DNA of 44,145 nt from the NCBI GenBank assembly GCA_019058245.1, contig JAHPZJ010000001.1, forward strand, positions 1 through 44,145, in the 5' to 3' direction. The DNA comes from Promethearchaeota archaeon (GTDB taxonomy: Archaea > Asgardarchaeota > Lokiarchaeia > Sigyniarchaeales > SOKP01). The notes below the pieces were generated by a model that was not told the DNA's origin, searched no databases, and was given only the letters and a program-made list of their open reading frames with translations. This document shows positions 4,626-10,242 of the stretch, in pieces. The position numbers and the translations under genes were made by a program. Positions within the stretch are counted from its first letter, which is position 1. Each line of letters begins with the position of its first letter.

Positions 4626-4914
4626 AAAACCACCTATTTATTTTTTTTAATATAATTTTTGATAAAACATTATAAATAAATTGTTATTTCTTAATAAATC
4701 TTAATTCACTTGAGATTGATTATTTGGTTTATTAGAATCTGGAGAATATATTTAGTAGTACTATAAACCATTATGATATGAAAAAATTTGATAAACTTAA
4801 TTCTGCTATATTAAATTGGATGGACTTCTCAAAGAGATGTTATTCAAAAGTACAAAATAAAATAATTCCATCTATAATATAAACTTAAAAAAAATAAGAA
4901 AGAATAATTAGAAA

Positions 4915-5114
4915 TTACTCCTTTTTAAAAACATTTCCACATTCCCCACACTTCATGCTCCTTGCATAGACCGGAGTTCCCTGCTTCAGTAGCATGCTGA
5001 AATAGCACTACTTATACTGTAGTAAAGCACATTATTCTTATCCGGTTCTTCATGAAGCATACGTGGATTCTCATTGCCACATTGGGGACATTTAACTCTT
5101 TTAAATTCACTCAT
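4915..5114 (-). CDS. Intron-split small zinc-ribbon protein, join(5114..5014,4984..4915), 56 aa
   Basis: Spliced translation MSEFKRVKCPQCGNENPRMLHEEPDKNNVLYYSMQGTPVYARSMKCGECGNVFKKE. ATG at 5114, TAA at 4917-4915. The two CxxC halves are in different frames unless 29 nt are removed. Confidence 0.85.
4985..5013 (-). other. Candidate bulge-helix-bulge (BHB) intron, 29 nt: AAGTAGTGCTATTTCAGCATGCTACTGAA
   Basis: Central 4-bp helix CAGU/ACUG with 3-nt bulges AU^A and AA^G. Inner stem AGUA/UGCU plus UGCU/AGCA with a 5-nt loop. Canonical cuts restore the reading frame. Confidence 0.8.
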
Positions 5115-5173
5115 AATATCTTAACTCTATAATAAAATGTTTTGAATATTTAGTAAAGTGACTGAATTTAAAT

Positions 5174-5704
5174 TTAGGTTTTTAAATATGTATTTATAAC
5201 AATCTCCCGAACTATATTCTCAATTTGTTTATCAGTAGTATCGATCACAATTTCAGCAGCTTTTTCATAAAGGGGTTTTCGGAACTTAAGAATTTTCATA
5301 ATTTCTCTCTTAGGGTTCTCTTTATCAATGAGAGGTCTTGTTTCTTTCCCGTCTTTTATTGCTCTGTTGAATATTTCATCTGGAGTCGCAGTTAATAATA
5401 CAATATGACAATTTTTCCTTAAATGTTGAATATTTATATGATTTAAAATTACTCCTCCTCCACACGAAATTACTACTTTGTTTAATTTTGATACGTACTT
5501 ACACACCGAAATTTCATACTCTCTAAATTTATCTTCTCCTTCCTCATCGAATATTCTAGGTATTGACTTATCTGCTTGTTGGACTATAAGTTGATCTGTT
5601 TCAATAAATTTGTAATCGTTATCAAGATATTTTACTAATGCTTTTCCTATTGTAGTTTTTCCAGTAGCCATAAAACCAATGAGAGCAATGGAATCTTTTG
5701 GCAT
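5174..5704 (-). CDS. aroK: Shikimate kinase, P-loop (bacterial AroK) type
   Basis: LIGFMATGKTTIG, IFDEEGEDKFRE, SCGGG, RPL, RKPLY. Confidence 0.92.
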   Translation of the reverse strand: MPKDSIALIGFMATGKTTIGKALVKYLDNDYKFIETDQLIVQQADKSIPRIFDEEGEDKFREYEISVCKYVSKLNKVVISCGGGVILNHINIQHLRKNCHIVLLTATPDEIFNRAIKDGKETRPLIDKENPKREIMKILKFRKPLYEKAAEIVIDTTDKQIENIVREIVINTYLKT

Positions 5705-7112: not shown

Positions 7113-7994
7113 TTGATTGATATGTCAGCGAAGGATTATATATCTGCTAGGACAAAAGTTCTTTGTGTGATGGGATATCCAATTGAACATTCAATGAGTC
7201 CCACAATGCACAATGCTGCTATTCGTGCTTTAAATCTTAATTATGTATATTTAGCATTTAGTATTTTACCTGATAACTTAAAGTCTGCCATAGATGGGAT
7301 TAAGGCATTTGATATTAAAGGTATCAATATAACTATCCCCTTTAAACAAACGATTATAAAATATTTAGATGAAGTCGATCCTGTGGCTCAAGAAATCGGT
7401 GCTGTTAATACGATAAAAAATAATGAAGGATTTTTAAGTAGTAGAAATACTGATGCAGAAGGTGCTATGAAAGCATTAGTAGATGCAGGTTATAAGGTTT
7501 CGGGAAAAAATATTTTATTACTAGGAGCAGGTGGAGCAGGAAGAGCAATAGCATTTATAGTAGCAAAAGAATCAAATAAAATAGTATTATCTGATATGGA
7601 TGAAAAAAGAGCAGAAAAACTTGCTAATGAAATAAAAAGAAAATACGGGACAAGTATCGAAGGAAAAAATAATAGTCATCATGTTTTAAAAGAAGAATCT
7701 AAAAAAGCGGATATCTTAATTAATGCTACTCCTATAGGAATGTACCCAAACATTAATAAATCACCAATTCCCTCTGAATTTTTACACAAAGATTTGTTTG
7801 TGTTTGACATCATATATAATCCATTAAAGACAAAATTATTAAAAGATGCAACTGAAAAAGGATGTACTACACTTTCTGGCTTAAATATGTTAGTTAATCA
7901 AGGAGCATTAGCATTTGAATGGTGGACTAATAAAAAACCAAATATTGATTTAATGAAAAATAAAATAATTGAAGTTCTTGGGATGGTTAAATGA
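7113..7994 (+). CDS. aroE: Shikimate dehydrogenase
   Basis: GYPIEHSMSP, NITIPFK, GAVNT, NTD, GAGGAG, NATPIGM, MLVNQG. Confidence 0.95.
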   Translation: MIDMSAKDYISARTKVLCVMGYPIEHSMSPTMHNAAIRALNLNYVYLAFSILPDNLKSAIDGIKAFDIKGINITIPFKQTIIKYLDEVDPVAQEIGAVNTIKNNEGFLSSRNTDAEGAMKALVDAGYKVSGKNILLLGAGGAGRAIAFIVAKESNKIVLSDMDEKRAEKLANEIKRKYGTSIEGKNNSHHVLKEESKKADILINATPIGMYPNINKSPIPSEFLHKDLFVFDIIYNPLKTKLLKDATEKGCTTLSGLNMLVNQGALAFEWWTNKKPNIDLMKNKIIEVLGMVK

Positions 7995-8899
7995 TAGGTA
8001 AAAATTTGTCTATTATTGGAGGTTCTGGTGGCATGGGCCAAGTTTTCGGACGATATTTCAAGCAACATGGGTTCAAAATTACTATATTTGCCCGAAATGA
8101 AGATAAATTGAAGGCTGTTGCTAAAGATTTAGAAGTTGAGTATGAGTTAGATCTCGAAAAATGCGTTGTAAATGCTGATATTGTAATGCTTTCAATCCCT
8201 ATTCATTCTACCTCAGATATGATTGAAAAGATCGCCCCGATGATGAAAAAAAATTCATTAATTTTTGATATAACTTCTCTAAAATTAGAAACCTCCATGA
8301 TCTTACATAAAGTTCATAAGATCTATCCTATTAACTGTGTATCAATTCATCCAATGTTTGGACCAGGAATCAAGAATTTGAAAAACTATGGTATTATTGT
8401 ATTAAGAATAGGTGGAACAAACCAATATGACAAAATAATTAATGAACTCCTTGAAATATTTAGATCAGATGGAATTATTATTACAGAAACAACACCGGAT
8501 ATTCACGATTCTAGAATCGCTATAACGCTTGGTGTTCCACATATGTTTAATATCTTATTCTTGAATTTACTTAAGAGGACAAATAAACCTTTAACTGAAT
8601 TAACTACTTTTACTGGTACTACTTTTCTTCTACAAAAAGTATTCGCAGAGAGCATTATTCAAAGGGAAATGGAGATGTTTGGTGAAATCCAAATAGAAAA
8701 TGAAAAATTTCATGAAATTTTAGATATTTTCGAAGATTTAATTAAAGAGTATAAAAAAGTAATTAAAAATAAAGACTTAAATCATTTTAAAAAACTCTTT
8801 TCTGAAGCATTAGAGTACTCAAAAGAAGACACACATTTTGAAGATTCATACAAATACTTTTATGAATTTATGAAGATTTTAAAAGGAAAAAAAGTATAA
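7991..8899 (+). CDS. tyrA: Prephenate/arogenate dehydrogenase
   Basis: IIGGSGGMG, DITSLK, HPMFGP, HD..IA...GVPH. ATGA overlap with aroE. Confidence 0.9.
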   Translation: MIGKNLSIIGGSGGMGQVFGRYFKQHGFKITIFARNEDKLKAVAKDLEVEYELDLEKCVVNADIVMLSIPIHSTSDMIEKIAPMMKKNSLIFDITSLKLETSMILHKVHKIYPINCVSIHPMFGPGIKNLKNYGIIVLRIGGTNQYDKIINELLEIFRSDGIIITETTPDIHDSRIAITLGVPHMFNILFLNLLKRTNKPLTELTTFTGTTFLLQKVFAESIIQREMEMFGEIQIENEKFHEILDIFEDLIKEYKKVIKNKDLNHFKKLFSEALEYSKEDTHFEDSYKYFYEFMKILKGKKV

Positions 8900-8914: not shown

Positions 8915-9283
8915 TTATTGAGTTGCACTTCCACAAAGAGCACAAAATTTAGCATTTTCATTTTGATTTAGTTCAGATCCACAGCTGTGACAAAATTTTG
9001 AACCTTTTTGAATTTTATGTGATTCTAAAACAAGATTTTGACTTTGACCTTGATTAACAGTATTTATCACTTGATAGTTTGAAATTGGTTGAATCTCTTC
9101 CATTTGTTCATAACAAACTGAATTACAATGAATACATTTGGGATGATGTTCCTTATCTAAGTATACAGCAATATAAATCAATAAACCAATTCCACCAGTA
9201 AAAATAGCTAAAAAAATCGCCAAACCAATATTAAATTCATTCTTCTTGGTATATACGTTTTTATTACATGTTGGGCAATACAT
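8915..9283 (-). CDS. LITAF-like CxxC-hydrophobic hairpin-CxxC protein with C-terminal zinc ribbon
   Basis: CPTC..GLAIFLAIFTGGIGLLIYIAVY..CIHC, then FCHSCG..FCALCG. SD GGAGTGA. Confidence 0.7.
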   Translation of the reverse strand: MYCPTCNKNVYTKKNEFNIGLAIFLAIFTGGIGLLIYIAVYLDKEHHPKCIHCNSVCYEQMEEIQPISNYQVINTVNQGQSQNLVLESHKIQKGSKFCHSCGSELNQNENAKFCALCGSATQ

Positions 9284-9424
9284 TTTTCGATCACTCCATA
9301 TTGCTTTTTTTTATTTAATTAAAAAGAGATTTCAATAGAATTAAAAAAATTTGGAGTCCAATTTTTAAAATTGAGAATTAAAAGCTTATCTAAAATGTAA
9401 AAAGAATAGAAAAAGAATTTAGAA

Positions 9425-9796
9425 TTATTTTATTTTACTACCACAATTTGGGCAAAATTTTATCCCAATCTCTAATTTTTCACCGCAGAGTGGGCAATAA
9501 TTAGGAGTAGCACCAGTTATCTCTTCAGATACGTTAACTGATGCAGAATATGGAGATTGTTGAATTTGAGGTTGATATCTGTAAGGGCTTTCAGGTTGAA
9601 GAGTCGTAATTTTAGTACCGCAATGTATGCATCTATCTTCTGTTCTTCTATAATAAATAACGAGATATATTATTAAACCAATTCCTGCTGTAAAAATCAA
9701 TAATATTATTGCTAAACAAGTATCAATTTCTTCCCGTGTCAATAATACGTTCTGTTGACAGCGGGGACACCATCCAGTTGGGTTTTTAGTTGTCAT
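9425..9796 (-). CDS. LITAF-like zinc-ribbon membrane protein, paralogue 2
   Basis: CPRC..LAIILLIFTAGIGLIIYLVIY..CIHC, a P/Q/Y-rich linker, then YCPLCG..FCPNCG. Confidence 0.7.
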   Translation of the reverse strand: MTTKNPTGWCPRCQQNVLLTREEIDTCLAIILLIFTAGIGLIIYLVIYYRRTEDRCIHCGTKITTLQPESPYRYQPQIQQSPYSASVNVSEEITGATPNYCPLCGEKLEIGIKFCPNCGSKIK

Positions 9797-9849
9797 TTTT
9801 TTTTCACATATAGTTATATAATTTTGAATAGTATAGATAATACTAGTTT

Positions 9850-10242
9850 TTATTGTTTAAGAGAGGCTCCACATTTTGGGCAAATTGAGTCTTGACTACT
9901 TATTATTTCCTGACAAAATGGACAATTTGCTATATTATTCCTTAATTGTTTTTCTTGTTCGATAGTTTGAAGAATACGGTTGATTTCAGCTTTTGGTTCT
10001 GGTATATCTTCACGAGATTTATAGAAATCCAATTGATTCTGGCAATAGGGACAAAGGTTCTTTCTTATAATTACATAGTGATATATAAGAAAAGCTATTA
10101 TTCCAAATCCCAATGAAGAAATGATCACAAGAATCCAGATATTATAATACATACTATCAAATGATTTTCTTTTTGGTTTGTTAATTTCTTTCTCGCAATT
10201 ATTACAGTAGGCAAATCTCCTATTTTTACCCATATCTCTCAT
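9850..10242 (-). CDS. LITAF-like zinc-ribbon membrane protein, paralogue 3
   Basis: CNNC..hydrophobic segment..CPYC, then CPFC..CPKCG. Confidence 0.65.
   Translation of the reverse strand: MRDMGKNRRFAYCNNCEKEINKPKRKSFDSMYYNIWILVIISSLGFGIIAFLIYHYVIIRKNLCPYCQNQLDFYKSREDIPEPKAEINRILQTIEQEKQLRNNIANCPFCQEIISSQDSICPKCGASLKQ

What the first reader, a model, noticed from the sequence alone, without database searches (positions are those of the whole stretch)
4915..5114. Candidate bulge-helix-bulge intron in a protein-coding mRNA of an Asgard-like archaeon
Seen: the minus strand reads ATG AGT GAA..TGT CCC CAA TGT..TAC TAC AGT AT[AAGTAGTGCTATTTCAGCATGCTACTGAA]G CAG GGA ACT CCG GTC TAT..TGT GGG GAA TGT..GAG TAA. 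Unspliced, it gives 42 aa ending at a TGA inside the insert, with only one CxxC. The insert (4985..5013, 29 nt) folds as a 4-bp central helix CAGU/ACUG with 3-nt bulges AUA and AAG on opposite strands and an inner stem-loop. Cutting after the 2nd nt of each bulge removes exactly these 29 nt, creates the codon AUG and restores a 56-aa CxxC..CxxC zinc ribbon. The outer helix next to the 3' bulge is imperfect (relaxed BHB/BHL type). Established: EndA cuts BHB motifs and RtcB ligates, in tRNA and rRNA; the well-known archaeal mRNA case is crenarchaeal cbf5. Inference: mRNA splicing gates expression of a non-cbf5 gene in an Asgard lineage. This is conceptually like RtcB-ligated, frame-shifting XBP1/HAC1 splicing, and gene callers would miss such genes.
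Basis: partly seen in the sequence, partly recalled or inferred. Interest (0 to 1): 0.95.

Follow-up and report, generated by a model that had tools for sequence, protein, structure and literature searches.

The report
tRNA-type intron in Asgard zinc-ribbon gene
A tiny zinc-binding protein gene of a Lokiarchaeia (Asgard) archaeon is broken by a 29-base insert shaped like the introns that archaea cut out of tRNAs; relatives keep the shape or lack the insert precisely, so the messenger RNA is very probably spliced, which the papers I could search report inside an archaeal coding sequence for one gene only (cbf5).

Summary
Confirmed. Removing 5013-4985 restores a 56-aa CxxC..CxxC protein. 35 genomes of the same genus carry a 29-nt insert at the identical AT|G site and 20 same-family genomes lack it precisely. 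The bulge-helix-bulge fold covaries (97.6% paired, 7 of 11 pairs changed on both sides). Both exons are under purifying selection (dN/dS 0.06), and no shared frameshift window exists. The genome encodes RtcB and an (alpha-beta)2 EndA with the crenarchaeal-type loop that cuts relaxed motifs.

New here: orthologues carry inserts at three more sites 17, 21 and 24 nt downstream; those at +17 are copies of this intron sitting in a second CAGU-AU target. The intron was lost precisely at least twice. The product is a stand-alone copy of the Zn domain of Loki2DGel gelsolin. At least seven more genes of this genome show similar inserts.

No spliced transcript was found. A regulatory 'gate' is unsupported: the competing fold shows no covariation. 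This scan reported the same intron, and the class, earlier on other genomes; I found no paper on it. New variant of the cbf5-type mRNA intron.

The parts
5014..5114 (-). Exon 1 (ATG to the first two bases of the Met35 codon), with the first CxxC knuckle
   Evidence: dN/dS 0.063 among 35 intron-bearing orthologues
4985..5013 (-). 29-nt BHB-type intron; carries the in-frame TGA (4988-4986) and shifts the frame
   Evidence: same length and site in 35 genomes and 25 JGI contigs; absent precisely in 20 same-family genomes
4915..4984 (-). Exon 2 (third base of the Met codon to TAA), with the second CxxC knuckle
   Evidence: dN/dS 0.062
5016..5019 (-). Central helix, exon strand CAGU (Tyr third base plus Ser codon)
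   Evidence: 99.3% paired; Ser codon AGY in 35/35 intron-bearing against 8/20 intronless genes
5013..5015 (-). 5' bulge AU|A; predicted cut after the second base
   Evidence: first two bases invariant in 35 sequences
4991..5012 (-). Inner stem-loop of the intron (4 bp, small internal loop, 3 bp, 5-nt loop)
   Evidence: 6 of 7 pairs show changes on both sides, 96.6% paired
4987..4990 (-). Central helix, intron strand ACUG (GCUG in most relatives)
4984..4986 (-). 3' bulge AA|G; predicted cut after the second base
   Evidence: first and third base invariant
5024..5029 (-). Outer exon-exon helix, 5' arm; offset from the central helix by 4 unpaired bases
   Evidence: 93.6% paired over 6 pairs, one pair with two-sided changes; predicted independently by RNAalifold
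4977..4982 (-). Outer exon-exon helix, 3' arm
   Evidence: Gln codon CAG in 32/35 intron-bearing against 3/20 intronless genes
5174..5704 (-). Upstream shikimate kinase (aroK) gene; conserved neighbour that establishes orthology, not part of the intron system
   Evidence: Pfam SKI E 6e-42; nearest upstream ORF in most same-family loci

Best explanation
The 29 nt are an endonuclease-type (BHB) intron. The pre-mRNA folds into a relaxed bulge-helix-bulge motif. The host's (alpha-beta)2 EndA cuts after the second base of each bulge and RtcB joins the exons, creating the Met codon and the 56-aa Loki-type zinc ribbon; unspliced RNA gives a 42-aa stub with one knuckle. The intron most likely persists as a tolerated insert that is removed constitutively, one of a genome-wide class in this family that is gained and lost repeatedly. 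Shown: insert, boundaries, covarying fold, selection on both exons, presence of the enzymes. Inferred: cutting, ligation, translation, and constitutive rather than regulated removal.
For: Boundary fixed by protein homology coincides with the BHB cut rule. Covariation: 23 cells with two-sided changes against 5.6 in shuffles, 0/500; slid controls 16-51% paired. Synonymous codons in the exons are constrained where they pair. dN/dS 0.06 on both sides. Inserts of 30, 30, 31, 32, 37, 41 and 42 nt at three other sites of the same gene all have BHB geometry (3-4 of 4 central pairs) and all restore the protein. EndA alpha aligns best to Aeropyrum EndA (E 4e-35) with no gap across the specificity loop and with its Lys; a second subunit lacks the catalytic His; RtcB is present. 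This enzyme type cleaves relaxed motifs (PMC5829648). A motif-free insert search of G000 gave two strong inserts, this one and one in ahcY, both with perfect central helices.
Against: No spliced RNA, circular intron or junction peptide was seen. The fold is marginal in energy (z -0.06) and a competing fold dominates the prediction in 14 of 35 sequences. The outer helix is not adjacent to the 3' bulge. The genomes are related, so the shuffle test overstates significance. All genomes are metagenome assemblies.
Confidence: 0.88

Rival explanations
1. Regulated splicing: the intron is a switch. A competing fold hides both cut sites, and a condition or a binding factor decides whether the 56-aa protein is made. 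This presupposes the best explanation.
For: The intron length is fixed at 29 nt in all 60 site-1 copies seen. Some loop positions are conserved beyond pairing needs. An alternative two-hairpin fold is 85.9% paired and wins in 14 of 35 ensemble predictions.
Against: The alternative fold shows no covariation (1 two-sided change; 420-475 of 500 shuffles do as well) and has probability 0.01 in this genome. The intron is lost in nested clades. Similar introns lie in unrelated genes.
Confidence: 0.15
2. Programmed -1 ribosomal frameshift inside the insert gives a 66-aa protein; no splicing.
For: 29 nt is equivalent to a -1 shift; in G000 both frames are open over 19 nt of the insert.
Against: The windows open in both frames do not overlap among orthologues (a single base in two genomes, a different 4-nt stretch in two others), there is no conserved slippery run, and insert-encoded residues are not conserved. 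Inserts at the other sites have lengths of all three phases, including in-frame ones with stops.
Confidence: 0.03
3. Pseudogene: an old insertion destroyed the gene in one clade, or the 42-aa stub is the functional product.
For: Other Zn-domain paralogues exist in G000, so loss might be tolerated.
Against: Exon 2 keeps dN/dS 0.062, and all 35 joined products keep an open frame and all four cysteines. The unspliced tail varies in length and sequence.
Confidence: 0.03
4. The insert is removed at the DNA level or bypassed by the ribosome (hop), or is an assembly artefact.
For: No transcript evidence either way; hairpin inserts can be excised from DNA or bypassed.
Against: Dozens of independent assemblies hold it with diverged sequences (32 distinct among 35), which excludes artefact. 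There are no matching take-off and landing codons or terminal repeats. The fixed 4-bp/3-nt geometry is what EndA reads.
Confidence: 0.04

Closest known systems
cbf5 pre-mRNA intron of Desulfurococcales and Sulfolobales (Yokobori 2009, PMC2738675)
   Same: Short BHB intron inside a coding sequence, splitting a codon; relaxed motif; hetero-oligomeric EndA; one gain followed by lineage-specific precise losses.
   Different: Different gene and phylum. cbf5 of this genome is uninterrupted at its catalytic Asp. Here four sites within 24 nt of one gene are used, with apparent copying of the intron, and many genes per genome carry such inserts. cbf5 splicing is proven by cDNA; this is not.
HVO_1309 5' UTR intron of Haloferax volcanii (PMC7714728)
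   Same: BHB intron in an mRNA, cut by EndA and found as a circle.
   Different: 46 nt, untranslated region, does not affect a reading frame.
Non-canonical tRNA introns of Thermoproteales and Asgard archaea (bioRxiv 10.64898/2026.10.13.758758; PMC11291895)
   Same: Same motif and enzymes; repeated gains at sites that allow BHB formation; copying of intron sequences proposed for Thermoproteales.
   Different: Those are in tRNA genes; the preprint never mentions mRNA (0 occurrences) and found almost no copying in Asgard tRNAs, whereas the +17 inserts here are clear relatives of the site-1 intron.
XBP1/HAC1 unconventional splicing (from my own knowledge)
   Same: Short frame-shifting intron, endonuclease cut, RtcB or tRNA-ligase joining.
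   Different: IRE1 cuts two separate stem-loops on a stress signal. Here the motif is BHB and no regulation is evident.
Loki Zn domain of Loki2DGel gelsolin and stand-alone Loki Zn proteins (PMC9433394)
   Same: Profile of the product hits the C-terminal domain of 7whg_G at E 4.7e-8, residues 288-333; same CxxC..CxxC with an extended hairpin; the paper notes stand-alone copies.
   Different: Hairpin 3 residues longer (YYSMQGTP type); no gelsolin part; function untested, so no link to actin is shown.

Membership tests
Archaeal BHB (EndA-type) intron | 4-bp central helix made of exon and intron strands | tested here: met
   4/4 in G000; 99.3% of cells paired in 34 distinct rows
Archaeal BHB (EndA-type) intron | Two 3-nt bulges, with cuts after the second base giving the exact exon junction | tested here: met
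   Cut rule reproduces the junction fixed by intronless orthologues
Archaeal BHB (EndA-type) intron | Flanking intron helix kept by compensatory change | tested here: met
   6 of 7 pairs with two-sided changes
Archaeal BHB (EndA-type) intron, strict hBHBh' form | Exon-exon helix directly next to the 3' bulge | tested here: not met
   Helix present but offset by a 4x4 loop; the motif is the relaxed HBh'/BHL form
Archaeal BHB (EndA-type) intron | Host has an EndA able to cut relaxed motifs, and a ligase | tested here: met
   Two EndA paralogues, alpha with the specificity loop and its Lys, and RtcB; activity inferred from PMC5829648
Archaeal BHB (EndA-type) intron | Excision from RNA and exon ligation | not testable with these tools
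   No transcript reads available; none of the proteins fetched equals a predicted spliced product
cbf5 intron family | Located at the catalytic Asp codon of cbf5 | tested here: not met
   Different gene; host cbf5 is a continuous 342-codon frame across GTLD
Loki Zn domain (2DGel C-terminal type) | Two CxxC knuckles around an extended hairpin; sequence homology to the Loki2DGel tail | tested here: met
   E 4.7e-8 to 7whg_G; 42% identity to the host's own 2DGel tail; model with a hairpin at 21-33/39-47
Loki Zn domain (2DGel C-terminal type) | Zinc binding | not testable with these tools
   Proposed only, also in PMC9433394
TFIIS/TFS zinc ribbon | Fold match and acidic Asp-Glu hairpin tip | tested here: inconclusive
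   Only weak fold likeness (Z about 3); the hairpin tip reads SMQG, not Asp-Glu
Programmed -1 frameshift site | Shared slippery site open in both frames | tested here: not met

The most novel reading that the evidence does not exclude
In this Asgard family, tRNA-type introns are a spreading class in mRNAs. An excised intron re-inserts where the exon offers the 4-base partner of its own 3' helix strand plus a bulge (shown here by copies in a second CAGU-AU site 17 nt away), is fixed in DNA through an RNA intermediate, and is lost the same way. That would be a spliceosome-free system of intron gain, copying and loss in protein genes of the closest archaeal relatives of eukaryotes.
Probability: 0.4. 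Interest if true: 0.9.

Novelty: new variant of a known kind. Interest (0 to 1): 0.74.

Why it matters
The papers I could search give two archaeal mRNA substrates of EndA, cbf5 and a Haloferax 5' UTR (PMC10485636, PMC7714728). A family of Asgard archaea with such introns in many coding genes changes what their genomes encode: this gene is deposited as a 42-aa stub. It also makes the open question of how BHB introns arrive testable, because a 24-nt stretch of one gene shows four insertion sites, apparent intron copying into a matching target, and repeated precise loss. The short substrate can be tested in vitro at once.

Tried and rejected
Genome-wide scans for BHB motif plus frame repair gave no excess over decoys (55/53/58; 562/572/559). 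They are noise-dominated, and the first missed this very intron, so they say nothing about abundance; a first version timed out. The search for spliced transcripts found none: 25 of 26 JGI contigs carry the intron and the one without is genomic DNA with genes on both strands; no fetched protein equals a predicted spliced product. The pattern search for second-site copies was uninformative: my gap range excluded the known case. Fold searches gave no clear match (best Z 3.4, no Foldseek hit at E 0.001), and the Atlas search gave only unnamed clusters. Pfam gave only sub-threshold zinc ribbons. Rfam gave nothing. No second copy of this intron sequence was found in G000. The bacterial promoter scan matched chance. 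No insert was found in 71 kb of aligned DNA of the complete genome G074, too little to say absent. The competing 'switch' fold was rejected on covariation.

Full report
Observation. The minus strand holds exon 1 (5114-5014), a 29-nt insert (5013-4985) and exon 2 (4984-4915). Joining them gives 56 aa with two CxxC knuckles; unspliced, the frame stops after 42 aa. On its own the fold is unremarkable in energy (z -0.06), but a shuffled insert reproduces the geometry in only 87 of 200,000 trials.

Organism. Records of orthologous loci are titled mostly Promethearchaeota or Promethearchaeia; one same-genus genome is Loki_b32. The host is therefore a Lokiarchaeia-type Asgard archaeon.

Orthologues. 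A search of 101 related genomes gave two kinds of match: full-length, and split at residue 35. 35 genomes of the genus carry exactly 29 nt between the second and third base of the Met codon, with 32 distinct sequences; 20 same-family genomes and the more distant order members read straight through. aroK lies directly upstream in most same-family loci, which supports orthology. In JGI metagenomes 25 of 26 matching contigs have the insert.

Structure test. On the gap-free alignment the BHB structure is 97.6% paired; 7 of 11 pairs change on both sides (23 cells against 5.6 in shuffles, 0/500), and slid controls reach only 16-51%. The sequences are related, so the shuffle count is not a probability. 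RNAalifold finds the same helices unaided. An exon-exon helix is kept (93.6%) but is offset by a 4x4 loop, giving a relaxed motif. Exon codons that pair are constrained: Ser is AGY in 35/35 intron-bearing genes against 8/20 intronless, Gln is CAG in 32/35 against 3/20.

The gene is alive. dN/dS is 0.063 before and 0.062 after the insert, and every joined product keeps its frame and cysteines. A programmed frameshift fails because no window is open in both frames in all orthologues.

Machinery. G000 has two EndA paralogues and RtcB. One subunit matches Aeropyrum EndA alpha best (E 4e-35), without a gap across the specificity loop and with its Lys; the other lacks the catalytic His. PMC5829648 reports that Asgard EndA is of this (alpha-beta)2, loop-bearing type and that this type cuts relaxed motifs. 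Cutting of this substrate is inferred, not shown.

History. On an RpoB tree the intron is absent from other genera and from a basal clade of the genus, and intronless genomes (G002 and seven relatives) nest among intron-bearing ones. A local aroK-plus-exons tree adds an intronless lineage (L238) as sister to a double-intron contig. Holding all intron-bearing rows in one clade is rejected (p-AU 1.5e-5). The simplest reading is one gain and at least two precise losses; some deep branches are weak, and gene exchange between lineages is not excluded.

A hot spot. Orthologues carry further inserts at +17 nt (31, 37, 41 and 42 nt; G016 and four contigs, two of them identical), +21 nt (32 nt in G030; 30 nt in G159 of another genus) and +24 nt (30 nt in G017). 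All have BHB geometry and all restore the protein. The +17 inserts resemble the site-1 intron better than any of 200 shuffles, share its 3' end, and sit in a second CAGU-AU site; in G016 both introns end in the same rare variant. They contain no duplicated exon sequence, which argues against simple tandem duplication. I infer target-directed re-insertion, probably through RNA; this step is not shown. The G017 and G030 inserts are unrelated to site 1 in sequence; the G159 insert was not compared.

Not an isolated case. A motif-free comparison with about 1.2 Mb of related DNA gave two strong inserts in G000, this one and a 32-nt one in a gene I recognise as ahcY, both with perfect central helices; 17 weak candidates had none. 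RNase HII was flagged as a 30-nt stop-containing insert. Following earlier notes of this scan, I confirmed BHB geometry and a repaired frame in elf1, an ABC ATPase, a response regulator and a nucleotide-sugar dehydrogenase, and BHB geometry alone in cdhA; these five were not tested against orthologues. The reverse scan found 29-35-nt inserts with full or partial BHB geometry in G002 and G051.

The product. Its profile hits the C-terminal Zn domain of Loki2DGel (7whg_G, E 4.7e-8). PMC9433394 describes this domain as Loki-specific, found at protein C-termini and as stand-alone proteins, with an extended loop. G000 has such copies on its gelsolin and on coiled-coil proteins. The intron falls at the tip of the predicted hairpin. 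I infer a small interaction module; its partner is unknown.

Regulation. A competing two-hairpin fold that would bury both cut sites is energetically favoured in 14 of 35 sequences but not in G000, and it shows no covariation. With repeated loss and similar introns in housekeeping genes, constitutive splicing is more likely than a switch.

Prior knowledge. The papers found name cbf5 and the HVO_1309 5' UTR as the archaeal mRNA cases; the 2009 paper says introns in other genes had been predicted but not confirmed. Asgard papers treat tRNA introns only. The library lacks most subscription journals. This scan already reported this same intron and the class in other genomes; those notes are not independent evidence.

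Verdict. A real feature, very probably a spliced BHB intron (0.88); a new variant of a known kind; interest 0.74. The missing piece is a spliced read or an in vitro cut.

Noticed in passing
L277 (G000 C10, minus strand, insert begins at 121094): 32-nt insert with a perfect BHB in the GHFDxEI motif of an adenosylhomocysteinase-like gene; absent in the G002 orthologue.
   Followed up: partly
G000 C25 + 92012; C25 - 73734; C3 - 41590; C23 + 13253; C23 + 15430; C28 - 106949: 30-34-nt BHB-like inserts in RNase HII, elf1, an ABC ATPase, a response regulator, a nucleotide-sugar dehydrogenase and cdhA.
   Followed up: partly
L047, L254, L259, L260, L267: Second intron 17 nt downstream of the first, related to it in sequence and sitting in a second CAGU-AU site.
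   Followed up: yes
L040 (G030) and L271 (G159): Different-looking 32- and 30-nt introns at the same +21 site in two genera that lack the site-1 intron; possibly independent gains.
   Followed up: partly
G002 C1 + 204867 (in L180): 35-nt insert in a gene whose G000 orthologue looks like ribosomal protein uL11 (recognised from memory); BHB geometry only partial at the best junction.
   Followed up: no
L272:4968-5972 (G000 C7, minus): 335-aa Loki2DGel gelsolin, nearly colinear with 7whg_G, ending in the same Zn domain family as the spliced product.
   Followed up: partly
G000 whole genome: ARAGORN finds only 19 tRNA genes, many with odd introns or anticodons, in 3.1 Mb; many tRNA genes are probably missed because of non-canonical introns or incomplete assembly.
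   Followed up: no
window 8915-10242: Three tandem small proteins, each with CxxC, a hydrophobic stretch, CxxC and a C-terminal zinc ribbon.
   Followed up: no
window 5120-5175 and 4880-4905: A+T-rich element upstream of the start codon and a T-rich tract after the stop are similar among orthologues; candidate promoter and terminator.
   Followed up: no
window 5174-5704, 7113-8899: P-loop shikimate kinase near shikimate dehydrogenase and a prephenate-dehydrogenase-like gene; in several relatives aroD lies on the other side of the zinc-ribbon gene.
   Followed up: no
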